Shown: positions 13,652-64,000 of the stretch, one piece after another
Layout of the letters: every line of letters starts with the position of its first letter
Numbering within the stretch: position 1 is the first letter of the stretch
DNA from: Auanema rhodensis
Lineage: Eukaryota > Animalia > Nematoda
Length of the DNA stretch: 64,000 nt
Direction of reading: 5' to 3'
Assembly: GCA_964057225.1 (NCBI GenBank)
Contig: OZ059895.1
Location: 4,836,001 to 4,900,000, forward strand
Notes under the pieces: generated by a model
Seen by the model: the letters and a program-made list of their open reading frames with translations, nothing else
Told to the model about the DNA's origin: nothing
Database searches by the model: none
Program-made: the position numbers and the translations under genes

Positions 13652-13837
13652 ATTTCTAAAAAGTTAAAGGGGATACAAAACGATACTGACAGAGAGATCT
13701 TCGGATAAGGATGAGCAGGATCTATCTTCTTGGAACTGGGTTCTTCGAGGGGCGTCGGAATCTAAAGAAAAACGTAATCTAGAGAGCGCGAGGAAGGGAC
13801 TCCGTAGGTGGAGACCAAGGGGTGGAAGGTGGGACTC

Positions 13838-13915
13838 CAGTCGAATAAATATAATCTCTTTTTCACGTCTATTTATAGTAAAAAAATTCTATTATATTTA
13901 TTCGACTGTTAGCTA
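13838..13915. repeat. DIRS internal complementary region (ICR), copy 1
   Basis: 13838-13890 is the reverse complement of the left terminus 13457-13509 (3 mismatches). 13891-13915 is the reverse complement of the right terminus 17846-17870. Together they copy the circle junction. The ICR overlaps the YR stop codon. Confidence 0.93.
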
Positions 13916-14994: not shown

Positions 14995-16541
14995 AGTGGA
15001 GCGATCAGGATGGCCTGTCGTCCTGAGTCTGCCAACTTGTTGATGGTCCTCTTGAGGAGGTGGAAGGGCGGGAAGACGAAGAGAAGTCCTTGCGGCAGCA
15101 GTTTCCAGTTGTGAGAGAAGGCGTCTACGCAGAATGCGTTCTCGTCTAGAAGGAAAGAGCAGTAAAGTGGTGCCTTTGCGTTCCAGGAGGATGCAAAAAG
15201 ATCAAATGTAGGGGTACCGAATCTTTGGAAAATACTCGCAGTCGTCTCCGGATGGAGGGACCAATCTTCGTGAAGGCATCTACCCCTGGAGAGTTGGTCT
15301 GCGATGTGATTCAGTCTGCCGGCGATGTGCGTTGCTCTGACTCGGATATTGCGCTCCCTGCAGAAGTGCCAGAGCTTACGGGCTATTTCCGAACCTCGTT
15401 CTGAGGCCGAGCCACCCCGCCTGTTGATGTAAGTTATCGCCGATGTGTTATCGATTAACAGTAACACGTCAATATTGCACCACTCAGTGCCGAAATGGAC
15501 CAGGGCTTTGAAGGCCGCAATAAGTTCCAACCAGTTTATGTGATAAGCATATTTCTCCTCGATTGACCATTTCCCTGAGATAGTGTTGCCTTCCCATGAT
15601 GCTCCATATCCTTCACCGGAGGCGTCCGATGTAATGGACAGGGATGGAGAGAAGGGTACAAGTGAACTCGGGGAGCCTAGTGTGCAAGATTCTTCTGATA
15701 GGAAGGCACGTAAGGTATCCCGAAGGTCTCCTACAATAGAGACCTGAGCGGGAAGCTCGTTGGGGTCGTTTAGGTTGGGAAAACCTATGTCTCGTAAATC
15801 TCTTTGAGTTTGTCTAACCCAAAAGGAAAAATGTGGGTGTACCACAGTGGCGAAGTTGATTCTCCCGAGGAGGGAGGCCAGTTTCCGGAGTGGGGAGGCC
15901 TGGGATCTGAGAAGGACCGACAGGGAGGTGCTTATAGCCTCCCGTTTCTCTGTTGGCAGGCGCCATTCAAGTGAGCGCGTGTCTATTTCTAAACCTAGAA
16001 AATCGAGCGATTGGGTAGGGCTTAAGATGGATTTAAGCATGTTAATAGAGAAACCCGCGTCACGGAATAGATCTATAGCACGAGACGCATGATCGGCCAC
16101 TCTTGTGGCTGACCTGTCTAGAAAAAGCCAGTCGTCAAGGTAGTTGATTAGGCGAATTCCCTGATCCCTGAGGAGCGCTGCAAGCACCCTCATCAGCTTA
16201 TGAAACACGTATGGGGCTGCGTTTAGGCCGAAAGGAAGGACGCAGAACACGTATGATCTGCCCTCTATATCAAAGCCCAGGTAGGGTTGATGTTCTATTG
16301 CCACAGGGATAGAATGATAGGCCGACTGGAAGTCCACCTTGCATAACCAATCATTGCGTTGCAACACCGATGGGAGGTCCCTAACGGATTCCAGCTTGAA
16401 CCGGGGTGTCTCTATGAAGGTGTTAAGCGTCTTCAAGTTGAGGATAAAGCGGCTGGACCCATCGGACTTGGGTACTAGAAAAGTAGAGAACCGGAAGATC
16501 CTTTCCCCAGGTCTAGCCGGTCTGATTGCCCCCGTCTCCAA
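14829..16541 (-). CDS. pol: DIRS Pol: reverse transcriptase - RNase H - adenine-methyltransferase-like domain
   Basis: RT motifs LPFGL and YLDD. RNase H motifs SDAS, LELIA, IDN and ADQLSR. C-terminal DLFAS...DAF...W...FPPF domain. The listed start is TTG. The frame is open from 16820 and includes the DIRS-like N-terminal AGAL...W...GYRLPF segment. Confidence 0.95.
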   Translation of the reverse strand: METGAIRPARPGERIFRFSTFLVPKSDGSSRFILNLKTLNTFIETPRFKLESVRDLPSVLQRNDWLCKVDFQSAYHSIPVAIEHQPYLGFDIEGRSYVFCVLPFGLNAAPYVFHKLMRVLAALLRDQGIRLINYLDDWLFLDRSATRVADHASRAIDLFRDAGFSINMLKSILSPTQSLDFLGLEIDTRSLEWRLPTEKREAISTSLSVLLRSQASPLRKLASLLGRINFATVVHPHFSFWVRQTQRDLRDIGFPNLNDPNELPAQVSIVGDLRDTLRAFLSEESCTLGSPSSLVPFSPSLSITSDASGEGYGASWEGNTISGKWSIEEKYAYHINWLELIAAFKALVHFGTEWCNIDVLLLIDNTSAITYINRRGGSASERGSEIARKLWHFCRERNIRVRATHIAGRLNHIADQLSRGRCLHEDWSLHPETTASIFQRFGTPTFDLFASSWNAKAPLYCSFLLDENAFCVDAFSHNWKLLPQGLLFVFPPFHLLKRTINKLADSGRQAILIAPLWKSQIWFPLLSQLVQEPPMSLHHPSLLQDKKGNSHPLLGTRNFFLAAWRISPPT

Positions 16542-16726
16542 AAGCTCCGCAAGGAGAGGGTTAGCCGGAAGGGATTGCGGTAACGATGTCAGATTTGACA
16601 GAAGGCGCTTAGGTTTACTCCCTGCGAAAGGGAGGCGGTAGCCTTTTACCGTCTGAAGGATATCCTGGTCTTTAGAGAGGGAACCCCAAAAGTCTAGGTG
16701 GGACGAAAGAGCACCTGCTATAGGAG

Positions 16727-17680
16727 TTAGCCTTGTGGATGGGTCGTGTTGATGGTCCCGATCGTTGGTTCGATGACGGTCTTGGACGTTGATGATCTCG
16801 GGAACTTGGTTCTTGAGTTTCTAGAGAGTTCAGAGAAAGCCGAGATTTCTGCCCTTAGCTTCTTTCCGAAGAGTTCCGGGACTGAGTCCTGAGAATAAAG
16901 ATTAATAGACGTTGGTCGCTTATGGCATCCTACCTCCTGAGAGTTGTCGAGAGACATGGTAGAACCGTAGAGCGGGGCCCTTTTGTAGCTAGGCATAGCC
17001 TTGATGGGCTGAGAGTACTTCATTTTAAGAAGTGCGATCTCTCTGAGGTGAGTATAATCCGTCTTGATATTGGCGCTGAGGAATCTTTCTGTCACGTTGA
17101 TGTATGCCTGTTGTTTGGAGGAAAGTGGAGACTTGTTATCGATCTTCGCAAGTTTCCTGATGATCCGTAGGCCGGCGAGCGCATTGAGCGTGTTCTCGTA
17201 AGAGGCCCTGATGTCAGCCTCGCTGATCTTCACTGATGGCTTGACTGAGCTGTCCACGTGGGTGGTGTATTTCTCATCCAGGCATGGTAGACGGGCGAAT
17301 GGAGAATCGAGTATTGGGAGCTCAGATAAGATGTCGGCTCTTTCAGTGTGCGTCATGGAGCAACCGGAGGCAAGACGCTCGAAGTCGGCAAGTTCGGAAC
17401 CGGAGAGGCGGACTACAGGCCTGGTTCTAGGTCCTTGAGATTCTGGTGGCATGGGCACGAAGTCGTCCTCGTCCGAGGAGTCATGTCGAACTTGATCGAG
17501 TTCTTCATGGGAGTTTTCCGAGTGATCGCCTTGGGTTGAGTCCGTAGGTGTGAGACGGCCATCGCGTCGTGAAGATTCCAAAGAGCCGTCTGATGAGATC
17601 GAGACGGATGAGCGGCCTCTTTTCGGGGCAGGCTCATGATCAGGGGCTTGTCCCTTCTTGGTAGTGCGAGCAGGGGCCAT
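16727..17680 (-). CDS. gag: Putative Gag-like ORF1 of the DIRS element (317 aa from first ATG, MAPARTT...)
   Basis: First ORF after the 5' ITR, with a basic/Ser-rich then acidic N-terminus. Assigned by position only. The C-terminus differs from copy 2 because of a 5-bp indel. Confidence 0.72.
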   Translation of the reverse strand: MAPARTTKKGQAPDHEPAPKRGRSSVSISSDGSLESSRRDGRLTPTDSTQGDHSENSHEELDQVRHDSSDEDDFVPMPPESQGPRTRPVVRLSGSELADFERLASGCSMTHTERADILSELPILDSPFARLPCLDEKYTTHVDSSVKPSVKISEADIRASYENTLNALAGLRIIRKLAKIDNKSPLSSKQQAYINVTERFLSANIKTDYTHLREIALLKMKYSQPIKAMPSYKRAPLYGSTMSLDNSQEVGCHKRPTSINLYSQDSVPELFGKKLRAEISAFSELSRNSRTKFPRSSTSKTVIEPTIGTINTTHPQG

Positions 17681-17710
17681 AGCGACCAACCGTGAGGCTC
17701 GAAACAAAAA

Positions 17711-17870
17711 TATGAAGTGTTTTACTGATAGAATTGACTTGAGAACCCGGTTCCCGCCAATACTTAAAGCCCGCCTTTCCCACGGTCTTATTACCCTATT
17801 CAAAAAAAATTTTTTTTTTGTAACGTGAGGTCAATGTAAACAATATAGCTAACAGTCGAATAAATATAAT
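17711..17870 (-). repeat. DIRS 5' (left) ITR
   Basis: Inverted copy of 13492-13651. Ends ...CGAATAAATATAAT, joined directly to satellite GATGCATTAG. Confidence 0.93.
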
Positions 17871-49531: not shown

Positions 49532-49725
49532 AGAATTTTTTTACTATAATAAGACGTAAAAAAGAGATTATATTTATTCGACTGTTAGCTATATTGTTTA
49601 CATTGACCTCACGTTACAAAAAAAAAATTTTTTTGAATAGGGTAATAAGACCGTGGGAAAGGCGGGCTTTAAGTATTGGCGGGAACCGGGTTCTCAAGTA
49701 AATTCTATCAGTAAAACACTTCATA
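49532..49725 (-). repeat. DIRS copy 2 3' ITR (49567-49725) plus extension (49532-49566)
   Basis: Matches 13457-13651 apart from one SNP and a 1-bp homopolymer difference. Confidence 0.92.
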
Positions 49726-49911
49726 ATTTCTAAAAAGTTAAAGGGGATACAAAACGATACTGACAGAGAGATCTTCGGATAAGGATGAGCAGGATCTATC
49801 TTCTTGGAACTGGGTTCTTCGAGGGGCGTCGGAATCTAAAGAAAAACGTAATCTAGAGAGCGCGAGGAAGGGACTCCGTAGGTGGAGACCAAGGGGTGGA
49901 AGGTGGGACTC

Positions 49912-49989
49912 CAGTCGAATAAATATAATCTCTTTTTTACGTCTTATTATAGTAAAAAAATTCTATTATATTTATTCGACTGTTAGCTA
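49912..49989. repeat. DIRS copy 2 ICR
   Basis: Perfect reverse complement of its own terminus 49532-49584, followed by the complement of the 5' ITR tip. Confidence 0.92.
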
Positions 49990-50832
49990 GTTAAAGAAAA
50001 TAAGGAGTCCTGGAAAGAGCGTCTCTTGCAATAGTGTTTGAAGAAGGTGCTTTCCGAGGCCCAGTTAGCTGCGTCTAAGATAGTTTTGACAGGCAGTCCA
50101 TTCTTAAAAGCTTTGGACGTAGCGGCAGCACGTACTGAGTGAGCTTTGAATTTTGTGGGGATTCCCGCTTCTTCTAGGCAAGTTCTAATCCAACCCGCTA
50201 CCGTAGTTGCGACTACTGGTTCTCCTCTGTTAATGCTAACTAGAAGGTTTCGCGATCGACGAGTATGCATGGTAGCCGTCAGGTAGGCATTTATGCAATC
50301 AATGGGGCAGACAAGAGGGCGTTCTGAATGGCTTTCGAAACAAGCTTCGCGGGGAGGGCCCTTGCCCCTATTCTTGTTCCTGAATTCGATGAAGAAGGTG
50401 ACCCCTCGTGTGTCAAAGCATTGTAGTTACGGAATAGTGTTCAGCGAGAAGGCAGAGAGCCGCCCTTGCTGTAGCAGCTGAGGAAAAACCGTTGTTCTCT
50501 GCTCGATGGGCTAAGAAATTGGCAACAGTTTTTGCATTGGGGATGAACTCGATCTGGGATAGCTTGCAATAATTCTCCCAAGCTTTGTAAGCCGTGTTAT
50601 ATTGTTTTCGGGTACCAGGAGCGAAAGCGTTTACCAATAGTAGTTTGGTCTGGTCCGATATTCCTTCTATGTTGGCGGTGAAATCCTCCACGCCGCCAGG
50701 AAAAAATTTCTTGTCCCCAGGAGGGGGTGAGAGTTGCCTTTCTTGTCTTGGAGAAGGCTGGGATGATGGAGGCTCATTGGGGGTTCCTGGACTAGTTGGG
50801 ACAGAAGGGGAAACCAGATCTGGCTTTTCCAA
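49983..50832 (-). pseudogene. Tyrosine recombinase pseudogene (internal deletion, frameshift)
   Basis: Copy-1 bases 14346-14586 (241 bp, including the catalytic Arg motif) are replaced by ATTGT at 50420-50424. The ORF is split into 50413-50832 and 49983-50270. Confidence 0.93.
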
Positions 50833-52379
50833 AGTGGAGCGATCAGGATGGCCTGTCGTCCTGAGTCTGCCAACTTGTTGATGGTCCTCTTGAGGAGGTG
50901 GAAGGGCGGGAAGACGAAGAGAAGTCCTTGCGGCAGCAGTTTCCAGTTGTGAGAGAAGGCGTCTACGCAGAATGCGTTCTCGTCTAGAAGGAAAGAGCAG
51001 TAAAGTGGTGCCTTTGCGTTCCAGGAGGATGCAAAAAGATCAAATGTAGGGGTACCGAATCTTTGGAAAATACTCGCAGTCGTCTCCGGATGGAGGGACC
51101 AATCTTCGTGAAGGCATCTACCCCTGGAGAGTTGGTCTGCGATGTGATTCAGTCTGCCGGCGATGTGCGTTGCTCTGACTCGGATATTGCGCTCCCTGCA
51201 GAAGTGCCAGAGCTTACGGGCTATTTCCGAACCTCGTTCTGAGGCCGAGCCACCCCGCCTGTTGATGTAAGTTATCGCCGATGTGTTATCGATTAACAGT
51301 AACACGTCAATATTGCACCACTCAGTGCCGAAATGGACCAGGGCTTTGAAGGCCGCAATAAGTTCCAACCAGTTTATGTGATAAGCATATTTCTCCTCGA
51401 TTGACCATTTCCCTGAGATAGTGTTGCCTTCCCATGATGCTCCATATCCTTCACCGGAGGCGTCCGATGTAATGGACAGGGATGGAGAGAAGGGTACAAG
51501 TGAACTCGGGGAGCCTAGTGTGCAAGATTCTTCTGATAGGAAGGCACGTAAGGTATCCCGAAGGTCTCCTACAATAGAGACCTGAGCGGAGAGCTCGTTG
51601 GGGTCGTTTAGGTTGGGAAAACCTATGTCTCGTAAATCTCTTTGAGTTTGTCTAACCCAAAAGGAAAAATGTGGGTGTACCACAGTGGCGAAGTTGATTC
51701 TCCCGAGGAGGGAGGCCAGTTTCCGGAGTGGGGAGGCCTGGGATCTGAGAAGGACCGACAGGGAGGTGCTTATAGCCTCCCGTTTCTCTGTTGGCAGGCG
51801 CCATTCAAGTGAGCGCGTGTCTATTTCTAAACCTAGAAAATCGAGCGATTGGGTAGGGCTTAAGATGGATTTAAGCATGTTAATAGAGAAACCCGCGTCA
51901 CGGAATAGATCTATAGCACGAGACGCATGATCGGCCACTCTTGTGGCTGACCTGTCTAGAAAAAGCCAGTCGTCAAGGTAGTTGATTAGGCGAATTCCCT
52001 GATCCCTGAGGAGCGCTGCAAGCACCCTCATCAGCTTATGAAACACGTATGGGGCTGCGTTTAGGCCGAAAGGAAGGACGCAGAACACGTATGATCTGCC
52101 CTCTATATCAAAGCCCAGGTAGGGTTGATGTTCTATTGCCACAGGGATAGAATGATAGGCCGACTGGAAGTCCACCTTGCATAACCAATCATTGCGTTGC
52201 AACACCGATGGGAGGTCCCTAACGGATTCCAGCTTGAACCGGGGTGTCTCTATGAAGGTGTTAAGCGTCTTCAAGTTGAGGATAAAGCGGCTGGACCCAT
52301 CGGACTTGGGTACTAGAAAAGTAGAGAACCGGAAGATCCTTTCCCCAGGTCTAGCCGGTCTGATTGCCCCCGTCTCCAA
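50667..52379 (-). CDS. pol: DIRS Pol (RT-RNase H-MT), copy 2, intact
   Basis: 570 aa, same as copy 1 except one visible P>S change (NELPA/NELSA). YLDD and RNase H motifs are intact. Confidence 0.93.
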   Translation of the reverse strand: METGAIRPARPGERIFRFSTFLVPKSDGSSRFILNLKTLNTFIETPRFKLESVRDLPSVLQRNDWLCKVDFQSAYHSIPVAIEHQPYLGFDIEGRSYVFCVLPFGLNAAPYVFHKLMRVLAALLRDQGIRLINYLDDWLFLDRSATRVADHASRAIDLFRDAGFSINMLKSILSPTQSLDFLGLEIDTRSLEWRLPTEKREAISTSLSVLLRSQASPLRKLASLLGRINFATVVHPHFSFWVRQTQRDLRDIGFPNLNDPNELSAQVSIVGDLRDTLRAFLSEESCTLGSPSSLVPFSPSLSITSDASGEGYGASWEGNTISGKWSIEEKYAYHINWLELIAAFKALVHFGTEWCNIDVLLLIDNTSAITYINRRGGSASERGSEIARKLWHFCRERNIRVRATHIAGRLNHIADQLSRGRCLHEDWSLHPETTASIFQRFGTPTFDLFASSWNAKAPLYCSFLLDENAFCVDAFSHNWKLLPQGLLFVFPPFHLLKRTINKLADSGRQAILIAPLWKSQIWFPLLSQLVQEPPMSLHHPSLLQDKKGNSHPLLGTRNFFLAAWRISPPT

Positions 52380-52509
52380 AAGCTCCGCAAGGAGAGGGTT
52401 AGCCGGAAGGGATTGCGGTAACGATGTCAGATTTGACAGAAGGCGCTTAGGTTTACTCCCTGCGAAAGGGAGGCGGTAGCCTTTTACCGTCTGAAGGATA
52501 TCCTGGTCT

Positions 52510-52976
52510 TTAGAGAGGGAACCCCAAAAGTCTAGGTGGGACGAAAGAGCACCTGCTATAGGAGTTAGCCTTGTGGATGGGTCGTGTTGATGGTCCAGAT
52601 CGATGGTTCGATGACGGTCTTGGACGTTGATGATCTCGGGAACTTGAATTGGTTCTTGAGTTTCTAGAGAGTTCAGAGAAAGCCGAGATTTCTGCCCTTA
52701 GCTTCTTTCCGAAGAGTTCCGGGACTGAGTCCTGAGAATAAAGATTAATAGACGTTGGTCGCTTATGGCATCCTACCTCCTGAGAGTTGTCGAGAGACAT
52801 GGTAGAACCGTAGAGCGGGGCCCTTTTGTAGCTAGGCATAGCCTTGATGGGCTGAGAGTACTTCATTTTAAGAAGTGCGATCTCTCTGAGGTGAGTATAA
52901 TCCGTCTTGATATTGGCGCTGAGGAATCTTTCTGTCACGTTGATGTATGCCTGTTGTTTGGAGGAAAGTGGAGACT
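52510..52976 (-). pseudogene. gag: 3' fragment of DIRS gag-like ORF, disrupted by LTR element insertion
   Basis: Matches copy 1 gag from SPLSSKQQ onward. An extra 5 bp near 52647 gives a different R/S-rich tail. Confidence 0.75.
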
Positions 52977-53321
52977 TGTCGTTCCGTTATGCTCTCACGT
53001 CGATCCTATAGACCAATAAAGCCTACAAGATGAGTGTGATAGTATTCCAGATGTAGCGGTAGATAAAGAGCATAATGGATAAACATAAGACTCGAGAAAG
53101 AAAGGTTTATTATGTCTACATGATTACAATAAGTTATATAAGTCTACATAAAGATATAAAGTGAAAGAGAGCTAAGAAAGGAAGACCAACCATCCATAGT
53201 CATTCCATAAGGCGAAGCTGAAGTCTGTGTTCCATATGAAGGGCGTGTCGTCCTCTCTCAGCCTCATGTCGTCTGATGCTAACCCGCCTGCTACGTATTG
53301 ATTTCCGAATGGAACGTGCCA
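52977..53321 (-). repeat. Putative 3' LTR (~345 bp)
   Basis: TGTCGTTCC...GGAACGTGCCA imperfect terminal IR. Minus-strand AATAAA at 53106-53111, TATA-like sequence at ~53134-53160, and a short minus-strand purine tract (GAAAAAA) adjoining 53322. The inner boundary is uncertain without the partner LTR. Confidence 0.6.
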
Positions 53322-54013: not shown

Positions 54014-57000
54014 TCATCGTCTTCTTCTTGGTGGTAGCCAATTTTGGTCCGATGGGTCTTCTGGTTCTGTTTCTTCAGTAGAGTCATAGTTATCGTTACC
54101 ATTTATGACTTTTATGATCTCAATATCGCTGTCGTCGTCCGTGTCATAAGTCGTTGTATTGGATCGCGTGTTTTGAGCGATTGTATGGTCCATTTTGCGT
54201 TCAAAAAGTTTGAGATTGTCTTTGTGTACGTCGTGAATTTTTCCAAATGGATTCTTGAGTTGTACCATGTTTCCTTGAACGTTGATGACTTCAAATGGTC
54301 CATCATATGATTTGCGAAGCTTTTGACCTGGTTTATGCGCTTTAATTGCTAACATAACTTGGTCTCCTTTTCGGATATCTCTTTCTTCTATTCGTTGTCG
54401 TCCATCATGTTTTCTCTTCGCGGTTTCTTGATGTTTTGCAAGATTTTCTTGAATGATGGTTCTTCTTTCTCCTCTGATATATTCGGTATTCTCAATTTCT
54501 TCCAAGATCTCTGGTTGTAATGTCTCGGGGAATAATTCTTTGTCTAATCTCATACGACTTTCTTTTCCGAATAATGCTATGTATGGAGAGATTCCTGTGG
54601 TTGCGTGTGTTATTGTATTTAACGCAAAAGTAATTTTTGGTAAATACATGTCCCAATCAGTTACGTCTTCGTTCAAATAGTGTGTTAATCCTTCTTCTAG
54701 CGTTCTGTGTAGTCTTTCGACTTGTCCATTAGAGTTTTTCTGATGTGGGAGTGTTGGCTCGTGTTTAATGCCAAGTTTTTCACACATTTCTTCAAATTTC
54801 TTTGATACAAAATTAGATCCACGATCGGTTATTAAACGATTTGGTGGTCCAAAAATATATACGAAATTCCTGAGGAATCTATCAATGATGACATCGGTGA
54901 CAATTGTTGGTATAGCGATGGTTGTCGCCCATTTGGAGAATGAATCTTGTATTGTTAGGACATAATTGTTGTTTCTTTTTGAAGTAGGGAATGGTCCCAT
55001 AATATCCATATGTATTCTCTCAAATGGTTTTGATGGTATTTCAAATTGACCCATAGGCTGAACGGTCATAGCGTGAGGATCTTTCTTCCTTTGTGCGCAT
55101 TTAACGCATTGTTTCACAAAAATTGCTATGTCCGTTTGCATATTTGTCCAGCAAAATCTTCGTAGTATGGCTTCTTTAGTTTTGTTAATTCCTTGATGTG
55201 CTCCAATTGCTGGGTCTTCGTGAAATTCTTCGATAACCTTGTTGATAAGTTCGCTTTCCCTTGGTAAAATCAAAGCTGGGTGTGGTCGTTTTCTGCTTGG
55301 TTTTGTGTATAACATGTTGTCAATAACACAATAACGATCATTAGAAAGCATGTTCTTTTTCGCTCTGTATTCTATTTCGGCGATAGTTCTCTTTATCCAA
55401 GGTGTATCCTCTTGAATTGCTCTAATGTCAGGTACATTAACGAAATTAATTTGAGCTTTCGGAATTTCTTTTGTTTTCTTTTTCTTTTCCGGTTTAGGAT
55501 CGTTTGCTTCATCTCCAATGTATCGTGAGAGAGCATCACAGACTTTGTTTAGTCTGCCTTCTCGGTATCTTATCTCGATATCGTATTCCTGTATGACTAA
55601 TTGAAATTTTGCTAGTCTTCCAAAAAGGTCTCTACGAGTCAATAAGCTTGTTAATGGTCGATGGTCTGTGATACAGATTGTATGTGATCCAAGTATATAT
55701 GTTCGAAACTGAGCTAAAGCGTATACGAGTCCTAACGCTTCTATTTCAATAGGAGCATAGTTGCGCTCCGCTTTTACAAGTTTACGGCTTGCAAATGCAA
55801 TTGGATGTAAATTTTTGAGTGGTTCATTGGGATCTTCAGGTTGTAATAACACTGCTCCCACTGCGATATTACTACCGTCACTTTCTATAATGAACATACG
55901 GTCTGATCTTGGTGGTTTTAAGACCGGTGCTTGGATCAATTTTCTTTTTAGTGTATCAACAGCTTGTTGACTTTTGTCATTCCATTGAAATTCCACATCA
56001 AGTTTTGTAAGGTCGTATAAAGGGCTTGCGATGTGTGCAAAATCCTTTATAAATTTCCGAAAGAATCCTACCATTCCCAAAAATGCTCTTACTCCTGTAG
56101 GTGACTTTGGAGCAGGATAGTCTTGAATGGCGGAGACTTTCTGTGGATCTGGTTTGACCCCATCTCTTCCGACAATTAAACCAAGAAATTTTACTTCAGG
56201 TCTTGCAAAAGCGCATTTCTTGAGTTTAATTTTCATGCCTAATTTCTTTACTTCTCTGAGAATCTCAGCTATATCGTCAAGATGTTGTTCTGCAGTGTCT
56301 GATATAACAAGTAAATCATCCAAATAAACAAAGAGTCGGCATTTACATCGGCTTTGAAGGTATCGTACTGCTGTTTGAAAGGTATGTGGCGCTCCACATA
56401 ACCCCATAGGCATCCTTCTATATTGATAAGTACCGGTGTTTGTTGTAAATGCTGTTAATGGTCGATCTGATTTCTTTAATGCTATTTGGAAGAATCCGGA
56501 TACTAAATCAAAGTTAGAAAAATATTGTGATCCGGCTGCCATATCGACAATGTCAGAGATGTTAGGTATGATGTACGTTTGCTTGCGAGTGACGTTATTT
56601 AGAGCACGGAAATCGGTTACGAAACGGAATGTTTCATCTTTCTTTTTGACTAAAACTACAGGACTATTGAAAAGAGATGTGGATGGTTCAATTATATTTT
56701 GCTTCAGCATCTCCTGTACCTGTCTTTCGACTTCTTCTTGTTTGCCTATGGGGATACGCGTTATACGCGGTCTAGGCATGTCCATATCTGTTCTTAGAGG
56801 TATTGAATGCTCTACAGGTCCTTTAAATAGTCCTATTTGTTTATCCTCATTTAAAAATGCATCTCTATTACGTAGAATACAAAGCTGAAGAAGATCTTTT
56901 TGTTCTTTAGTTAGGTCGGCATCTTTTAAATCAAGATCGTTCATAAAGTCCTGAGGAAAATGAGGTAATTTATTTTCCCAATCCGCTTCGGGTGGTATAT

Positions 57001-57730
57001 AGTCTGGATTGTGTTCGGTCGTAAAGATCTCGTATTGTGGCAGTACGCCTATTTTTGCTTTGTCAATAATGTTTCCGGGTGATAGATCTATAGGATGATC
57101 AGTGTTGTTTTTGAATGTCATGGTAATTGAATTGACGTCTCGAAATGCTGTTTCGTAGGTGGTAGATATCGTCTTTTCTTCATCGGGTTGTAGCATGGCG
57201 ACTTCGTTGTGTGATATGGGTTCAGCTAACCTTACTGGTATTCTACAGGTCTGATGAGGAAAGATACATTGTGGATTTAAGTTTATCAAATTAATGACAA
57301 ATGATGTTTTTCTAATATTCCCGTTATTTCCATTGGCTAACGGTACTACGCGGTTTCCGATTTCTAACGTTTGTTTGAATGGTCGAAGTTTCATACCGAT
57401 ATTTTGACGATCGAGTGTTTTCATAAAATCTAATCCAATTAATGCTGGTGATGGACAGTCTTCATCTCTTGATATGAAGAATGTATGATCTATTTCATAT
57501 CCAGCAATTTCTACGGTTAAATCAATTGTTCCAAGAAATCGAAATGCCGATCCGTTTGCTGTCGTTGCAACTGATTTATCCTTTTTTACAAAATCATTCA
57601 AAGTTAAGTAATGTAATGTCGAAAGTCTGATATAACTAATCGATGATCCTGAATCCCAAAGAGTTAGGATTAGTCTATCGTTAACAGTCATCAATAGCAG
57701 TGGTAGAGATTGGTCTTTGCGATTGGAAAC
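54014..57730 (-). other. pol: Pol portion of polyprotein (PR DSG 57647-57655; RT YLDD 56315-56326; IN ~54200-55440)
   Basis: All catalytic motifs are present and in frame. Confidence 0.93.
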
Positions 57731-60700
57731 TGAACAAACTATGGGCATAGCTAGTGGAACTAAAGTGAGAAACGATGGATAGTACTGTTTCATTATGTTC
57801 CTTGGTATTGGCTGATCAGGTTGACTTACTAGCTCTAATGTTTCTTCATATGTGGGAAGATCGTTGGTTTGATCTCGGAGTTCGATATGCATGACTTGCA
57901 TGCCTATTGGTTTGAAGAAATATATTTTCGCAACAAAGGCTAGTACGATCAGTATAACTACAATAATTGTAATTGCTCCAATAGTGATGAGTGTTCGTTC
58001 AATTGTTCCTGCTATTGTCTCGACAAATGAATTCCATGTACTTTTGGTGAATTCATTGGCTTTGGAGATGTAATCACTACTTTTCTTCAATATGCTGAAT
58101 GCTGATGATATTTTTGGATCATGATGAATTGTGTGAAGCACGTGATTTTGACGAATCGATGCTAAACTAGCACCATAAGCAATGGCTGTTGTCATTGAGT
58201 ACACTCGAGATGATAAGTTGGTGTATAAGTGTGCTCCGGTGAATTTTAATGGCGTGATCTTTTCATGATGAAGTCCGTCCCACATGGATATAAGACTGAC
58301 GTCTACAGTACCATTAATTCCTTTCCATTCACCGTCTGTTGACCATACGTCTGTTGGTACGTGATCACAGTTAATTTCTTTACCATGAGGTAATAGGTCT
58401 TTCGATCCTGGTGCGGCAAACAGTAATTGTCCTTCTTGTGTTAATACTGGGGTTTCGAGATAACATGTGCCATTCACAGTGTGATTGTGATATATAGTCT
58501 TTTGTAATACTACCGGGCAAACATGTATATGTAATATCTCGCTGCCTACAAATCTTGCGGCTATATCTTCTCTTCCCAGTATTGTACGCATAGCTATTGT
58601 TGGTTCGATTTGTAAAATTGATCTCCATAATTCAAGATACCTATTTTGGATCTCACATATTGATTCGTATGACTCTTTAAAATGTTTCTGCAGTTCTTCT
58701 TGAATCATAGTTGTAGCATATTGCAAATGATCTTGTGCAATTCTGCTTGTTATGTTTTGGCGAAACTGTTGTTCAGAGTCAACTTTTGTGGCAATGTATT
58801 GAGCATTAGCCTGTACAGACTCTATATCGGTGGCTGTAGGCGTTGATGATGCTCTATGTTTACGAATCAAAGATATTGGTGTATATGTAGTTTCTTCCAT
58901 TATTGGAATTTGTTGATCTTGATGAACAGCGTAGAGAATAGTAGTTGGCGGCGCGCGGGTCGATATTGTTGCGCGCGCGGTTGTCGTTGCGGTTGTATGG
59001 CGCGCCGTTGTTTCGGGCTGGGCCATCGATGAAGGCGCGCGCGCGGTAGTTGCTGCGGCTGCCCGAGGGCTTGTAGATGTTTGCGGCAGTATTGCGGGAT
59101 CTGTTGTGATCAGCGCCTCACGATCGATTATAGGGAGGGCTGCCATCTCGGCCGCGCCGCCTGCCGCGTTGCTTGGCGCACGCGTCGTGGTTTGCAACGA
59201 TTTAAGTTGGATTTTCTCTGTCATTAATCTTTTTAACTGTTCTGATGATATTCTACTAGATGTATTAGGCAAAATATTATCGTTTAGTAGTGGTAAAAAT
59301 ATTTCCAATAATAAGTCCTTAGAGATGTTGTTGGGCTCTATGAGCTTGGGATGTGGTCCAATTGGTATTCCAAAATTATTCTTGATGTCATAGAACAATT
59401 TATCAGTATCAAGTACAAACATTCGTGAAGATGGAAGGTTTATAAATTTTATGTCATCAATATCAGCTGCTGTTTTATTTCTTCTAAGCGTAACGAGAGT
59501 TTTTAGCTCATGTACAAGGTCAATTGTATCTTTTATAAATTTGCTGTTTCTTTCTTCTTGATCAGTTAATAATTGTTTCCTTATTGGTGGCATTTTTACG
59601 AATGCTTTCAATATTTCTTGTCTTGATGGAACTGTTAATTTGTCTTCAATTATAACTGGTGTATTGGCTAAATCAAGAGCAATAGTTTCAGCACGCTCTC
59701 GATAAGTGCCTTCTTTTGTACGAATTAACCGATCAAATTCAATAACGGTCAAACGATCTGATATTTGTTGAAGAAGTTGCCTGGATGTTAAATAAGATAT
59801 TCCAGCTTTAGTAGCTAAAGCTAATTCTCTTTGAGCAACATATTGTAAAATGGCTTCGTCTTTATCACGGAAATCATATTGCTTGAGAAAATGTCTCAAA
59901 GATTTCTCATAAATTTGAATTTTAAAGAAAAATTCAAAATTTTCACGATGGGCTATTATCCATTCTTTCAAGGAATATGTAGGGTCTACCATACGTCTTC
60001 CTTTAATTAGAGGAATAATTTGTGTAATTCCTGGATTACTCATAAGTGGTCTTAAAAATGGATATGGGCAAATTCGAAGCGTGTACGTTTCAAAATCTTC
60101 AACTTCATTTATTCTATCCTGATCGAATGGGAATGAGCATTTTGTAGAAGTTGCGCGTTTAGGTCTTTTGAACGGCAATTTCTTAAATTCTCGTTCAATT
60201 AGGAGTGTGATGTTGTTATCATTAGGATATTTGGGGAATGTTATATAATTTCCTGATGTTGTATGGAATGCTGGTTGTCTAAAGCAGGATGCAATTGGTT
60301 TTGGTGTTATTTTACTCGAAAGGATAAGCGCTGATTGTGTACTTGGAATCAGAATAGTTTCTTTGCTTATTATAGCATCGTAGTAATGCATATCGATATA
60401 ATTACAACGGGAATCCGATGTTTGGGGATCCCATATAATTATTGATGTATTTGATTTGCAATTACCATGATGAGCACTACAACCTTCAGTGTTTAGTATT
60501 AAATTGGATAATATTGTATCATCGGGCATGCGGGTCATGACTCCGCGCTCTAGTACTAAACGCGGCCGCTCCTCGCACTCGTCGCGGCTAAACGCGCGCG
60601 CCGGATCATAGGAGGGCTCTGGGGTTGCTTGTGCTATACTATCGATTCTCTCCAGCTCCATGTTATTCCATTTTCGATCGCGAATCGCCTGCCTGCACTC

Positions 60701-62698
60701 GTGCGCCGCTATAGGCTGCACCCTATCGATTGTTCTGTTTGTGTCGCGGAGGAATAACAAATCGCGTACACACAGCTTGTGTACTTCCTTCGAGCAGCGC
60801 CACGCGTCCCACTCGTGTGCCGTGTGGTTTCGCGTGTATAGATGGATTTGTGTACGTAGCACATGATTTGTTTCTGTTAATTTACATTTCTTTACTACTG
60901 GTGGAACTAATAAGGCTCCTCCAGTTGCTTTTGTGCAAATTTGATATGAAGTTACACATGGCAGGAAAATTGCTACTGTGATTGCCATTACAACCGTTAG
61001 TGATAACGGTGAAAGGGTCACAGAGTTAATTCGTGGTGTGCTTCTATCTCGTCCTCTTGATTGATCTCTTTGATTGTTAAAATGGACTCTTCTTTGTCCG
61101 TTATGTTCATTAGTCCTTCCTCTTCTACTATTGTTTGAAGGATTAAAATTGTTTGAATGCCAGTTGTTATTAAATCGTCCCGAATTTCGGTCATAATTAT
61201 TGTTACGGCGATAATTAGCAAAAGAGCCGTTACGATTTTGGTTGTTATTATATTTTGAAAAGTTTTTATTTTTCTGATAATTTTGATAATTATGATAATT
61301 TTTATTGTTTTGGTTATCACGTGGATAATTATGGTCGAAATTTCGGTTATCTCGTCTCTCGTTTGTGCGCGCGAAAGGAGCTAGTGCTTTGTTTACAGCA
61401 TTGACTAGCATGGACTGCGTGTCTGTTGTCTGGTTCATTATCGATTCTTCCCAGCGAGCGGCCTCAATCGCATCCGTGAAGGATTTTGGCTTCGCTCGAA
61501 TCACAGCTGGTTTCAGAGTATTTTTCAGTCCTCTGAGAAAAGTTGATCTTAATATGTGATCTTTGTGAGGGTCATCCGTGGCAAAAGCGCTTAGTGCAAT
61601 CGTTCTCAGTGATTGAGCGTAAGCGTCAATTGTCAGATCACCTTGGGTTGTATTTTGGAGATTGATCAGCGCTGGATCCTGATTATATTCAGGACAAAGC
61701 TTAGATGTTAAAGCTCTTAACAGGTCATTCCATGAACCGGTGGTTTTTAATTGTTCAGGTACTTGCCTGTACGCTTCTTCCGCTGCTTCGTTTTTAAGAA
61801 GCAAAGGTAGAAGGGCTAATCTCTCCGGGATTACCAGACCTACAGCGTTGGCAAATAGGTTGAATTTAGCCGTGAAATCTCGAAAGTTGCGACTGCCATC
61901 ATAAGTTGGGCAGTAGGGTGATAACAAGGCTTGCGCTATGGTAGTTTTCCCTGCCCCAGGTAAAGAAGGTTCAGTTGCCATATTACTTGTACGGGCAGAT
62001 GGCATTTTTATCACTCTGCCTGTTGTTAATGAGTTCTCAGACACAGGGGTTGTGTGTACTGAGCGGCTGGGTCGGTTTGGTGTTTTTGAACTTCCTGTTG
62101 TTGTATTTGGTAAAATTGGGGTTGAAGTTTGGTTATCAGTAATAGCAAGATGTGTATGTTCGGGTGGTTGTATGGGAGATAAATTAATGTTTGGAACCGA
62201 CGAGTATCTGTTCGTGTGGCTGGTGTTCAAGTTTCGATCTTTTGGTGAACGATTGAAGAGATCAGAAACTATGTTTTTAAAAGTTTGTAAACCGCCTGCA
62301 CTAGTAGTGGCTACTGAAGGTGAAACTGTTGGTTCAGGGATCGACAGAGAGAGAGATGCGTCCGATTTGCTTGAGTTTTTATTTTTATTTTTCTTATTTT
62401 TATTTGAATTAGAGGAGCGTACCTTTTTAGCAGTAACTGGTGTTTGTTCTTCCACTATGATGGATGTTTCTTCTCCTCCTGGTGGTACGTAATCCTCGTC
62501 GCTTAATCGTTCAGTAGGTGAATAAGTGCCTGCACGAGGAGTAAAGAATTTGTCGGTTTTGTGCTCGGCTTTCTGCTCGTCTTCGATTATAGCGATGCTT
62601 TGTGCGCGAGCTCGGCTACGGGTGAGTGGAGCTGAGTCTCGCAGATCAAAATCAGTTCGTGTACTGAGAGGTACAGCTGATCGGAATCGCTTATCCAC
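54014..62698 (-). CDS. Gag-Env-Pol polyprotein (2894 aa): CA-like Gag, Env glycoprotein, aspartic protease, RT, RNase H, integrase
   Basis: Gag CA-like motifs PTYDG..F..F, QGDLTIDAY and FLRGL. Signal-like segment, Cys-rich ectodomain and TM. PR WDSGS and IGLDF; RT MPMGL and YLDD; RH SDGS, EALG, TDH, DALSR; IN HHCC, D-D-E and GPF. The listed start is GTG, the frame is open from 62761, and the first ATG is at 62005. Confidence 0.96.
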   Translation of the reverse strand: MDKRFRSAVPLSTRTDFDLRDSAPLTRSRARAQSIAIIEDEQKAEHKTDKFFTPRAGTYSPTERLSDEDYVPPGGEETSIIVEEQTPVTAKKVRSSNSNKNKKNKNKNSSKSDASLSLSIPEPTVSPSVATTSAGGLQTFKNIVSDLFNRSPKDRNLNTSHTNRYSSVPNINLSPIQPPEHTHLAITDNQTSTPILPNTTTGSSKTPNRPSRSVHTTPVSENSLTTGRVIKMPSARTSNMATEPSLPGAGKTTIAQALLSPYCPTYDGSRNFRDFTAKFNLFANAVGLVIPERLALLPLLLKNEAAEEAYRQVPEQLKTTGSWNDLLRALTSKLCPEYNQDPALINLQNTTQGDLTIDAYAQSLRTIALSAFATDDPHKDHILRSTFLRGLKNTLKPAVIRAKPKSFTDAIEAARWEESIMNQTTDTQSMLVNAVNKALAPFARTNERRDNRNFDHNYPRDNQNNKNYHNYQNYQKNKNFSKYNNNQNRNGSFANYRRNNNYDRNSGRFNNNWHSNNFNPSNNSRRGRTNEHNGQRRVHFNNQRDQSRGRDRSTPRINSVTLSPLSLTVVMAITVAIFLPCVTSYQICTKATGGALLVPPVVKKCKLTETNHVLRTQIHLYTRNHTAHEWDAWRCSKEVHKLCVRDLLFLRDTNRTIDRVQPIAAHECRQAIRDRKWNNMELERIDSIAQATPEPSYDPARAFSRDECEERPRLVLERGVMTRMPDDTILSNLILNTEGCSAHHGNCKSNTSIIIWDPQTSDSRCNYIDMHYYDAIISKETILIPSTQSALILSSKITPKPIASCFRQPAFHTTSGNYITFPKYPNDNNITLLIEREFKKLPFKRPKRATSTKCSFPFDQDRINEVEDFETYTLRICPYPFLRPLMSNPGITQIIPLIKGRRMVDPTYSLKEWIIAHRENFEFFFKIQIYEKSLRHFLKQYDFRDKDEAILQYVAQRELALATKAGISYLTSRQLLQQISDRLTVIEFDRLIRTKEGTYRERAETIALDLANTPVIIEDKLTVPSRQEILKAFVKMPPIRKQLLTDQEERNSKFIKDTIDLVHELKTLVTLRRNKTAADIDDIKFINLPSSRMFVLDTDKLFYDIKNNFGIPIGPHPKLIEPNNISKDLLLEIFLPLLNDNILPNTSSRISSEQLKRLMTEKIQLKSLQTTTRAPSNAAGGAAEMAALPIIDREALITTDPAILPQTSTSPRAAAATTARAPSSMAQPETTARHTTATTTARATISTRAPPTTILYAVHQDQQIPIMEETTYTPISLIRKHRASSTPTATDIESVQANAQYIATKVDSEQQFRQNITSRIAQDHLQYATTMIQEELQKHFKESYESICEIQNRYLELWRSILQIEPTIAMRTILGREDIAARFVGSEILHIHVCPVVLQKTIYHNHTVNGTCYLETPVLTQEGQLLFAAPGSKDLLPHGKEINCDHVPTDVWSTDGEWKGINGTVDVSLISMWDGLHHEKITPLKFTGAHLYTNLSSRVYSMTTAIAYGASLASIRQNHVLHTIHHDPKISSAFSILKKSSDYISKANEFTKSTWNSFVETIAGTIERTLITIGAITIIVVILIVLAFVAKIYFFKPIGMQVMHIELRDQTNDLPTYEETLELVSQPDQPIPRNIMKQYYPSFLTLVPLAMPIVCSVSNRKDQSLPLLLMTVNDRLILTLWDSGSSISYIRLSTLHYLTLNDFVKKDKSVATTANGSAFRFLGTIDLTVEIAGYEIDHTFFISRDEDCPSPALIGLDFMKTLDRQNIGMKLRPFKQTLEIGNRVVPLANGNNGNIRKTSFVINLINLNPQCIFPHQTCRIPVRLAEPISHNEVAMLQPDEEKTISTTYETAFRDVNSITMTFKNNTDHPIDLSPGNIIDKAKIGVLPQYEIFTTEHNPDYIPPEADWENKLPHFPQDFMNDLDLKDADLTKEQKDLLQLCILRNRDAFLNEDKQIGLFKGPVEHSIPLRTDMDMPRPRITRIPIGKQEEVERQVQEMLKQNIIEPSTSLFNSPVVLVKKKDETFRFVTDFRALNNVTRKQTYIIPNISDIVDMAAGSQYFSNFDLVSGFFQIALKKSDRPLTAFTTNTGTYQYRRMPMGLCGAPHTFQTAVRYLQSRCKCRLFVYLDDLLVISDTAEQHLDDIAEILREVKKLGMKIKLKKCAFARPEVKFLGLIVGRDGVKPDPQKVSAIQDYPAPKSPTGVRAFLGMVGFFRKFIKDFAHIASPLYDLTKLDVEFQWNDKSQQAVDTLKRKLIQAPVLKPPRSDRMFIIESDGSNIAVGAVLLQPEDPNEPLKNLHPIAFASRKLVKAERNYAPIEIEALGLVYALAQFRTYILGSHTICITDHRPLTSLLTRRDLFGRLAKFQLVIQEYDIEIRYREGRLNKVCDALSRYIGDEANDPKPEKKKKTKEIPKAQINFVNVPDIRAIQEDTPWIKRTIAEIEYRAKKNMLSNDRYCVIDNMLYTKPSRKRPHPALILPRESELINKVIEEFHEDPAIGAHQGINKTKEAILRRFCWTNMQTDIAIFVKQCVKCAQRKKDPHAMTVQPMGQFEIPSKPFERIHMDIMGPFPTSKRNNNYVLTIQDSFSKWATTIAIPTIVTDVIIDRFLRNFVYIFGPPNRLITDRGSNFVSKKFEEMCEKLGIKHEPTLPHQKNSNGQVERLHRTLEEGLTHYLNEDVTDWDMYLPKITFALNTITHATTGISPYIALFGKESRMRLDKELFPETLQPEILEEIENTEYIRGERRTIIQENLAKHQETAKRKHDGRQRIEERDIRKGDQVMLAIKAHKPGQKLRKSYDGPFEVINVQGNMVQLKNPFGKIHDVHKDNLKLFERKMDHTIAQNTRSNTTTYDTDDDSDIEIIKVINGNDNYDSTEETEPEDPSDQNWLPPRRRR
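57900..61030 (-). other. env: Env portion of polyprotein: class III (gB-like) fusion glycoprotein candidate
   Basis: Internal signal peptide 60947-61030, paired Cys residues, several NxS/T sequons, RPKR at 60155-60166, the segment LQY...C..Q...LW.....P......LGR.DIAARFVG.......C...CY, and a TM at ~57930-57994. Confidence 0.8.
61031..62698 (-). other. gag: Gag portion of polyprotein
   Basis: S/T/P-rich leader, CA-like domain at ~61440-61915, and an N/R-rich basic tail with no CCHC knuckle. Confidence 0.82.
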
Positions 62699-64000
62699 TT
62701 TGGTAGCGCTCTTGGTTTGGAAAAACCTTGAGTGTTTAGTAACGTGGGGGATTTTGAGACGTTAATGAGTGTTATGGATAAGGAGTTTTGGAAAAGGGGT
62801 GAGAAAGCTGTGAGTAACTGGTTTGTATAGTCGGCGTTAAGGAATGAATCTAAGTTGTGGCCTTTAACAGAGATCCGCCTACTACCGTATGAAAATTTGG
62901 ACTTTGTTCGCTCTCCAATTTAATATTCTTAAATGTATATAATTCAACCAGTTTGTATATGTTCAAAAATGTTCAGTGCTCACTTGATTGATGCCTGAGC
63001 AATCTCATTAGTCCTTATTCCCATTTTTTTTTTCTTTTTCTGACAATTCTGATCTTCTTGGACTCACGAGTGATCGAAAATGCCACGAAAATGGACTTTG
63101 GTAAATGTTCAAAGGATTTTAGCGGTTTTCATAATGTACATCCGTAATAGCATTACTCTTTTAAGGAAGCAATTTGGAAAACGAATGAGTACCGTAGTCC
63201 CATCATGATCAGAAATCTAGTTTTAAAATTATGGTTAGGAATAGATGACTAAAGATTACAATAACTATATTTAAAGAATTATGGTGTTTAGGAATGAGTC
63301 TTATGCTTCAAAACAACAATAACGGTATGAGGAAGGTGACATATAGTAAGGGGAGAAAATCCAAACTGATATGCTTAAGCCAACACGACCTGATAGACAA
63401 TCACTAATAATAATTCAGTTCGTAAAATTGTACAGGATTTTTCGGACTATAGCGATCTTAAAATTCACTTTTCATAATATTCCTCCCATTTAGGTAAGGT
63501 TTCCCGTGTAAATTCAATGCGTTATCAAAATATTTTTGGATGTTAATGGCAAAAAGTTGTCTGAACAGAAATGTAACGCAAAATAAAATAGTCCTGATCG
63601 CAAAATATGAAATAATCTCAATTTGGTGCGCAAAATTGTTTCATCCACAAAAATAAAGAAATAACCGTGGCTATTCTTTCCTCGAAGCCAAAATCAATCC
63701 TTAAAAGGAGAAAGTGTGGGCATAAATCTCAATAAAAATTATCCTTGGGTGAATTTGTTCACTAATTCATCCTAGGGTCCTCAAAAATGCTTCGAGTTCG
63801 GGTAACAGAGTATTCGATGTTAACAGCAAGGTTATAAAAATTGTTGGGTTCAGACAGACAGAAAATTGTGAACAAACGGGAAAATATAACTTCAGTTTCA
63901 AAAAATATAAAATATCCATCTCCAAAAGGAGTGGTCCTTGCATCTGTTCCCTTTTAAACGTTGTTGGCCCCACCGTATTGTGTTAAGACATGGAGTAGAT

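What the first reader, a model, noticed from the sequence alone, without database searches (positions are those of the whole stretch)
57930..60946. Env resembles a class III viral fusogen (herpes gB-like)
Seen: LQYATTMIQEEL...SICEIQNRYLELWRSILQIEPTIAMRTILGREDIAARFVGSEILHIHVC...GTCYLETPV (58450-58726). From memory this parallels the gB domain III/IV pattern LQF.Y...WC..Q...W.....NP..........AR..GD.....C...CY..P. An N-terminal Cys pattern (WRCSKEVHKLC, AHECR) fits a fusion-domain region. Inference: a fusogen captured from an unrelated virus, distinct from retroviral class I Env and baculovirus-F-like errantivirus Env.
Basis: partly seen in the sequence, partly recalled or inferred. Interest (0 to 1): 0.8.

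Follow-up and report, generated by a model that had tools for sequence, protein, structure and literature searches.

The report
Gag-env-pol retroelement with gB-like fusogen
A retrovirus-like jumping gene, likely of a nematode, carries between its capsid and enzyme genes a protein predicted to fold like the herpesvirus gB membrane-fusion protein; that layout is already published, but this copy adds about 450 extra amino acids inside the fusion protein.

Summary
The motifs lie in one uninterrupted 2,915-codon frame (54014-62761, minus strand) ordered Gag, hydrophobic signal, Env, transmembrane helix, protease, RT, RNase H, integrase: a Ty3/gypsy element with env BETWEEN gag and pol. Env passes the Pfam Monjiviricetes_fusion cut-off. 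A profile of it hits 54 herpes gB and 4 other viral glycoprotein sequences in the PDB, and its AlphaFold model matches gB domains I/II (Z 11.6, rmsd 4.3 A, 209 residues). This kind of element is published: PMC13524379 lists 36 nematode gB-type GAG-ENV-POL elements. This scan has also met it on other DNA. 'Captured from an unrelated virus' was not tested here; that paper argues for an ancient association. Two features here go beyond what I found in print. First, a ~450-residue insert after the furin-type site: an unassigned helical domain, 48% identical in an Auanema relative, plus a Thr/Ala-rich linker. Spacers over 150 aa occur in 18 of 41 env-before-pol relatives and 0 of 12 env-after-pol ones. 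Second, the LTR ends CG...CG instead of TG...CA. Verdict: new member of a known kind, modest interest.

The parts
54014..62761 (-). Single uninterrupted gag-env-pro-pol frame, 2915 codons; first Met at codon 254 (62002)
62003..62761 (-). 253 open codons without Met upstream of the first ATG; likely coding (spliced or non-AUG start)
   Evidence: 0 of 20000 shuffles kept this frame open
61418..61804 (-). Gag capsid domain (residues 320-448)
   Evidence: Retrotrans_gag 25.3 bits vs cut-off 24.1; Ty3_capsid E 0.0018, below cut-off
61022..61351 (-). Asn/Arg-rich region in the nucleocapsid position; no CCHC knuckle
60950..61021 (-). Internal hydrophobic segment, likely the Env signal peptide (residues 581-604)
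   Evidence: hydropathy peak 2.29; a like segment precedes Env in 25 of 28 env-before-pol proteins, the window's own included
60167..60949 (-). Env N-terminal half: class III fusion domain I and PH-like domain II (residues 605-865)
   Evidence: pLDDT mostly 85-98; model 30-241 aligns to HCMV gB 7yrn, Z 11.6, rmsd 4.3, 209 residues, and to Mokola virus G 6tmr, Z 8.9, rmsd 5.6, 185 residues
60155..60166 (-). Furin-type R-x-K-R site (residues 866-869)
   Evidence: only such site in residues 561-1700; kept in P0001
59192..60154 (-). Insert, folded part: Cys pair (875, 898) and a predicted all-helical domain (residues about 910-1190)
   Evidence: 48% identity to P0001 over 870-1060 and 29% over 1061-1190; folded alone, pLDDT 75, pTM 0.71
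58835..59191 (-). Insert, Thr/Ala/Pro-rich disordered (mucin-like) linker (residues 1191-1309)
   Evidence: T 20%, A 20%, 19% identity to P0001; pLDDT about 26-33
57992..58801 (-).
   Evidence: PF24664 and PF00606; 75-residue helix in the model; trimer prediction
57932..57988 (-). Transmembrane anchor (residues 1592-1610)
   Evidence: hydropathy 3.18
57419..57691 (-). Aspartic protease, D-S-G motif present
   Evidence: Asp_protease_2 27 bits vs cut-off 24.3; translation
56174..56650 (-). Reverse transcriptase, Y-x-D-D motif present
   Evidence: RVT_1 E 4.8e-31
55583..55984 (-). RNase H
   Evidence: PF17919, PF17917
54743..55255 (-). Integrase (H2C2 finger and core), after RT/RNase H: Ty3/gypsy order
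   Evidence: PF17921, PF00665
52980..53316 (-). 3' LTR, 337 bp, ending in 6-bp inverted repeats that start 5'-CG and end CG-3'
   Evidence: window letters; contig depth step and loose ends at 52980 and 53316
62762..64000 (-). 5' untranslated region; the 5' LTR ends about 109 bases beyond the window edge
   Evidence: one contig joins the LTR end to 64000 with 109 letters between (run X12)

Best explanation
This is a Ty3/gypsy LTR retroelement, likely of a nematode, whose one reading frame holds gag, env and pol in that order, and whose Env is predicted to be a class III (gB/G-type) trimeric membrane-fusion protein that would let its particles enter other cells. Shown: gene order, domain matches, hydrophobic segments, LTR, insertion into a DIRS element. 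Inferred mechanism: the polyprotein is threaded through the ER membrane. Gag stays in the cytosol and ends in an internal signal peptide; signal peptidase frees the Env N-terminus in the lumen; the C-terminal helix anchors Env and returns protease-RT-RNase H-integrase to the cytosol, where the element's protease would release them. Furin-type cleavage at residue 869 would leave the ~450-residue insert as the N-terminus of the anchored subunit: a helical head on a flexible, probably O-glycosylated stalk just ahead of the domain III helix. There it most likely works as an accessory attachment or shielding module, while domains I-V carry out the class III refolding.
For: Order and domains. Profile against the PDB: 58 sequences at E<=0.01, of which 54 are herpes gB (best E 8e-17) and 4 are other viral glycoproteins matched through the N-terminal half. 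Model: mean pLDDT 71.5. Foldseek PDB: every row shown is herpes gB, best E 5.5e-11. BFVD: best E 1.5e-13, to a rhabdo-like virus glycoprotein. Domain I/II superposition Z 11.6, rmsd 4.3, 209 residues. Three copies of residues 1319-1590 scored 0.54 against a best control of 0.00 (3 controls); that mark was reached by 20 of 30 solved self-pairs and 1 of 23 single chains; runs share at least 39% of contacts; partner pLDDT only 48-50; the pass may come from likeness to solved gB trimers. A hydrophobic segment precedes Env in 25 of 28, and a gag hit lies upstream in the same chain in 27 of 28 env-before-pol proteins. Closest relative: Auanema sp. JU1783 P0001, 60-62% identical in the core halves, without gaps. 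The insert's first part is 48% identical in P0001 and its profile finds 11 other held proteins, two of which (P0011, P0024) form a 100/99 clade with the window's RT.
Against: No fusion, cleavage or particle has been shown. The whole-ectodomain pTM is 0.42, and global superpositions on gB have rmsd above 20 A, so only the domains, not their arrangement, are reliable. PF00606 is below its cut-off. An R-x-K/R-R site is present in only 41 of 94 spacers. The role given to the insert rests on position and conservation only; long spacers of other relatives fall into 15 unlinked groups at blastp E<=1e-4, and many are mainly S/T/P-rich, which also fits a tolerant loop. The host is inferred from one named relative; no genome is held.
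Confidence: 0.85

Rival explanations
1. Same element and fold, but the insert is only a tolerated expansion of the flexible loop at the cleavage site, with no function of its own.
For: Spacer length runs continuously from 32 to 516 among 41 env-before-pol proteins, and long spacers are mostly unrelated to each other. The last third of the insert is 19% identical to P0001 and disordered.
Against: Residues 870-1060 are 48% identical to P0001 with 3 gap columns, near the protease (51%), and keep both Cys. The region folds alone at pLDDT 75, pTM 0.71.
Confidence: 0.3
2. Env has lost its fusion role (the insert blocks refolding) and now only anchors the polyprotein or the particle to membranes for movement inside the cell.
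For: The insert sits directly before the domain III helix, which must rearrange in class III proteins (established knowledge). Short derivatives that skip env are joined in contigs and the ends have higher depth than the middle, so part of the family spreads without env.
Against: The core halves are 60-62% identical to P0001 with no gaps, better kept than the protease; the core Cys are conserved; the cleavage-type site is kept.
Confidence: 0.1
3. Env is a recent capture from a particular unrelated virus.
For: Best predicted-structure neighbours are glycoproteins of negative-strand RNA viruses; Env passes the Monjiviricetes family cut-off. From recall, Sacco et al. 2022 proposed capture from an RNA virus; I could not read that paper.
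Against: Identity to viral proteins is only 8-16%, whereas 284 cluster representatives match at E<=0.001; among the best 150, 53 of the 94 with both Env halves also hit protease, RT or integrase profiles. PMC13524379 reports co-divergence of env with pol and hosts. An ancient viral source is not excluded.
Confidence: 0.1

Closest known systems
GAG-ENV-POL, HSV/gB-type Ty3/gypsy 'errantiviruses' of Nematoda, Bryozoa and Platyhelminthes (Chary and Hayashi, eLife 2026, PMC13524379)
   Same: Ty3/gypsy pol, gB-type Env with domains I-V between a signal and a transmembrane helix, env between gag and pol. 36 nematode elements are listed, all ENV_HSV.
   Different: No Auanema entry is among the 36. 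The sections I read do not describe an insert between domains II and III or unusual LTR ends. Here: a ~450-residue insert and CG...CG LTR ends. I did not compare this copy's sequence with the listed elements.
Non-canonical nematode endogenous retroviruses (Sacco et al. 2022, J Gen Virol, PMID 35550022)
   Same: Flipped env/pol order in nematodes, as cited in PMC13524379. From recall: one continuous gag-env-pro-pol frame, some with a Upf1-like helicase; P0002 has such a helicase ahead of Env.
   Different: Paper not held, so I cannot say whether it mentions inserts. This copy has no helicase.
Auanema sp. JU1783 unnamed protein P0001
   Same: Same order, 60-62% identical Env core, same spacer length (504), same cleavage-type site.
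   Different: The record ends early in RT; the mucin-like part is only 19% identical.
Herpesvirus gB, rhabdovirus G and Monjiviricetes glycoproteins (class III fusogens)
   Same: Domain I/II fold, long domain III helix, conserved Cys, single C-terminal anchor.
   Different: 8-16% identity; encoded inside a retroelement polyprotein; no gH/gL/gD partners in the element; large insert at the cleavage loop.
Tas (Ascaris) and Atlas (Ancylostoma) belpaoviruses (PMC9094657)
   Same: Nematode LTR elements with non-retroviral fusogens; Tas env is weakly similar to gB; Atlas makes one polyprotein.
   Different: BEL/Pao lineage. Atlas is Gag-Pol-Env with a class II protein.

Membership tests
Class III viral fusogen (gB/G/gp64) | Fusion domain inserted in a PH-like domain (domains I/II) | tested here: met
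   Model 30-241 vs HCMV gB: Z 11.6, rmsd 4.3, 209 residues; Mokola G: Z 8.9, rmsd 5.6, 185 residues
Class III viral fusogen (gB/G/gp64) | Long central helix followed by beta crown (domains III/IV) with conserved Cys | tested here: met
   75-residue helix then strands; PF24664 above cut-off; Cys 1369, 1415, 1433, 1465 are 91-96% conserved
Class III viral fusogen (gB/G/gp64) | Trimer through the central helix | tested here: inconclusive
   Predicted: 0.54 vs best control 0.00; mark reached by 20 of 30 solved self-pairs and 1 of 23 single chains; at least 39% of contacts shared, pLDDT 48-50; may be memory of gB
Class III viral fusogen (gB/G/gp64) | Signal peptide and C-terminal transmembrane anchor | tested here: met
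   Hydropathy peaks at 586-604 and 1592-1610; no dedicated signal predictor was run
Class III viral fusogen (gB/G/gp64) | Hydrophobic fusion loops at the tip of domain I | tested here: inconclusive
   Hairpin tips near residues 668-671 and 718-724 hold hydrophobic and aromatic residues; not mapped residue by residue on gB
Class III viral fusogen (gB/G/gp64) | Drives membrane fusion | not testable with these tools
   needs a fusion assay
Ty3/gypsy LTR retroelement | PR-RT-RNase H-IN order with catalytic motifs | tested here: met
Ty3/gypsy LTR retroelement | Two LTRs and a short target duplication | tested here: inconclusive
   3' LTR at 52980-53316; the 5' LTR is outside the window but joined to it in one contig. 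Flanks at the two LTR ends, seen in separate contigs of another insertion, share the same 4 bases next to the LTR
Ty3/gypsy LTR retroelement | LTR ends TG...CA (usual, not universal) | tested here: not met
   Ends are CG...CG within 6-bp inverted repeats; the boundary is fixed by the empty DIRS copy and by loose ends
Ty3/gypsy LTR retroelement | tRNA primer-binding site | not testable with these tools
   lies beyond the window edge
GAG-ENV-POL gB-type errantivirus (PMC13524379) | gB-type env between gag and pol | tested here: met
GAG-ENV-POL gB-type errantivirus (PMC13524379) | RT placed among the published nematode clades; Cys-bridge type | not tested
   No named reference RTs were held; the tree of 23 RTs has unnamed rows only

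The most novel reading that the evidence does not exclude
In gag-env-pol elements the cleavage loop between domains II and III has become a slot for accessory domains. In this lineage it holds a ~280-residue helical domain of a fold not yet described, on a mucin-like stalk, that serves as a built-in receptor-binding or trigger subunit. It would do in cis what gD/gH/gL do for herpes gB, addressing the open question of how these lone gB-type Envs find and enter cells. The same family would integrate with CG...CG ends.
Probability: 0.25. Interest if true: 0.6.

Novelty: new member of a known kind. Interest (0 to 1): 0.3.

Why it matters
The class III Env in a gypsy element, and its place between gag and pol, are published, so the finding as written is not new. 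It is a clean example of a lone gB-type fusogen made inside a retroelement polyprotein. PMC13524379 states that the entry mechanism of such elements is unknown, because herpes gB needs gD, gH and gL. If the conserved insert is an attachment or trigger module, it gives that question a concrete target. CG...CG ends would also be missed by LTR finders that require TG...CA.

Tried and rejected
Identity of the insert: no Pfam family at E<=5 for residues 870-1060 or 870-1320. The search of proteins of 176-562 aa found 1 hit among 1767 candidates, an Auanema Env fragment. The Atlas, queried with the matching part of P0001, gave only leads under 0.9. The model of the insert gave no chain at Z>=5 among 48,161 (best 4.4, death domains, 62-65 residues) and no BFVD match at E<=0.001. 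None of this shows that the fold is new. Expression: no RNA holder listed. The one run guessed to be RNA has depth in 13 of 30 bins, mostly at the ends; not used as evidence. Copy number: contig depth is not a copy count and no genome is held. The self-comparison of the window found no second LTR; the contigs explain this. The flanks of the other insertion are not seen in the satellite stretches I read. The join 54292-62427 lacks GT..AG ends and occurs in a DNA run, so I reject splicing as its cause. The RT tree (23 rows, 4 of 20 branches well supported) cannot say how often inserts arose. Word-indexed searches of long proteins found 1 hit each. Literature: searches gave no paper on Env inserts in these elements or on CG...CG LTR ends; subscription papers, including Sacco 2022, are not held. 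PMC5408684 (passages) did not bear on the case. The figures of PMC13524379, including its domain alignments, could not be seen and may show inserts. No earlier scan note matched by sequence.

Full report
Observation. The quoted motifs are at residues 654-690 and 1346-1439. Pfam places, in order, a Gag capsid domain (320-448), a Monjiviricetes fusion / gB match (1343-1607), protease (1691-1781), RT, RNase H and integrase. Hydrophobic peaks at 586-604 and 1592-1610 bracket Env. So this is a Ty3/gypsy element with env in frame between gag and pol.

Fold. PF24664 scores 50.2 bits against a cut-off of 27; PF00606 is significant (E 7.5e-9) but under its cut-off. The single sequence hits herpes gB weakly: 45 of 46 listed PDB sequences, best E 0.0014. 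A profile of 55 sequences hits 58 PDB sequences, 54 herpes gB and 4 other viral glycoproteins through the N-terminal half. The AlphaFold model of residues 605-1590 has mean pLDDT 71.5 and pTM 0.42. It shows a confident beta-rich N-half, a helical middle, a disordered stretch, a 75-residue helix, a beta crown and a helical arm. Foldseek returns only herpes gB among the PDB rows shown, and negative-strand virus G, entomopoxvirus proteins and gB in BFVD. Whole-chain rmsd is above 20 A, so the domain arrangement is not reliable, but model residues 30-241 superpose on HCMV gB at Z 11.6, rmsd 4.3 A over 209 residues. Three copies of the C-half scored 0.54 against a best control of 0.00. That mark was reached by 20 of 30 solved self-pairs and 1 of 23 single chains; at least 39% of contacts were shared, pLDDT was 48-50, and likeness to solved gB trimers may explain the pass.

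The element. Contigs from public DNA runs hold the element (11 of 15 listed runs hold half its words or more). They fix the 3' LTR at 52980-53316 by depth steps and loose ends, and one contig puts the end of the 5' LTR 109 bases past the window. The LTR begins and ends with 6-bp inverted repeats reading CG...CG. The left boundary is independently fixed by the empty site in the other DIRS copy. Flanks of another insertion show the same four bases next to both ends, though in separate contigs. The element sits in a DIRS copy inside a 351-bp satellite. The closest named relative is from Auanema sp. JU1783, so the host is likely a nematode.

The insert. After the only furin-type site (866-869) come about 450 residues not seen in typical relatives. 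Of 153 held proteins (the best 150 of 284 hits, P0001, P0002 and the window), 97 had both Env halves; the median spacer was 60 and the window's is 504. After dropping 3 rows with a short N-half match or a negative spacer, 94 remained: spacers over 150 occurred in 18 of 41 env-before-pol, 0 of 12 env-after-pol and 11 of 41 unplaced proteins. The sample is biased towards relatives of this Env. The long spacers form 15 unlinked groups. The window's insert is 48%, 29% and 19% identical to P0001 in its three parts, against 60-62% for the core and 51% for the protease. Residues 910-1188 fold alone as a helical domain (pLDDT 75, pTM 0.71, 9 rows). I could not assign it to a family; the searches are listed under Tried and rejected.

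Mechanism. Inferred from anatomy and from established knowledge of viral polyproteins: the internal signal peptide sends Env into the ER lumen, the anchor returns Pol to the cytosol, and host and element proteases separate the parts. A hydrophobic segment before Env (25 of 28) and gag in the same chain (27 of 28) are general in env-before-pol proteins. Cleavage at 869 would place the helical domain and mucin-like stalk at the N-terminus of the anchored subunit. I think an attachment or shielding role more likely than none, but only position and conservation support it.

Literature. PMC13524379 (read: abstract, outline, section 6 in full, part 1 of the discussion, the file list, passages, and rows of supplements 1, 2 and 4; figures not seen) reports gB-type Env in Ty3/gypsy elements across animals and the GAG-ENV-POL order in nematodes, bryozoans and flatworms, with 36 nematode entries. 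It cites Sacco et al. 2022 for the flipped order; that paper is not held and what I say of its content is recalled. PMC9094657 (passages) notes the gB-like env of Tas. Earlier notes of this scan describe the same kind in flatworms, one with a sugar-rich insert; these are unchecked AI notes and not support.

Verdict. New member of a known kind, with an undescribed insert domain and odd LTR ends as the leads worth keeping. Interest 0.3.

Noticed in passing
window 49650-52979 and about 13800-17850: Two near-identical copies (99.6% over 2555 bases) of a DIRS-type element with RT and tyrosine recombinase frames. The gypsy element is inserted into the second copy at 52979/52980; the first copy shows the empty site.
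   Followed up: partly
window 5-49531: 351-bp satellite, about 139 copies, hosting the DIRS copies.
   Followed up: no
window 52980-53316: LTR with CG...CG ends. Contig depth over it is far above that of the internal region, which suggests many solo LTRs or short derivatives.
   Followed up: partly
window 54292-62427: Contigs in runs X4 and X12 join across this stretch: a likely non-autonomous deletion derivative that keeps only the ends; the ends show roughly 3-4 times the depth of the middle.
   Followed up: no
window 62003-62761: 253 open codons without Met before the first ATG; no relative among the held proteins; start unexplained.
   Followed up: partly
window 52548: Contigs of three runs have 20 more bases here than the window's DIRS copy.
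   Followed up: no
P0002: A relative with a Upf1-like helicase in the same chain ahead of Env and two protease-like stretches.
   Followed up: no
P0020, P0045, P0051; P0027, P0031, P0036, P0037, P0091, P0126, P0015, P0012: Other, unrelated families of conserved inserts in the same Env loop, one with Cys; not folded.
   Followed up: no
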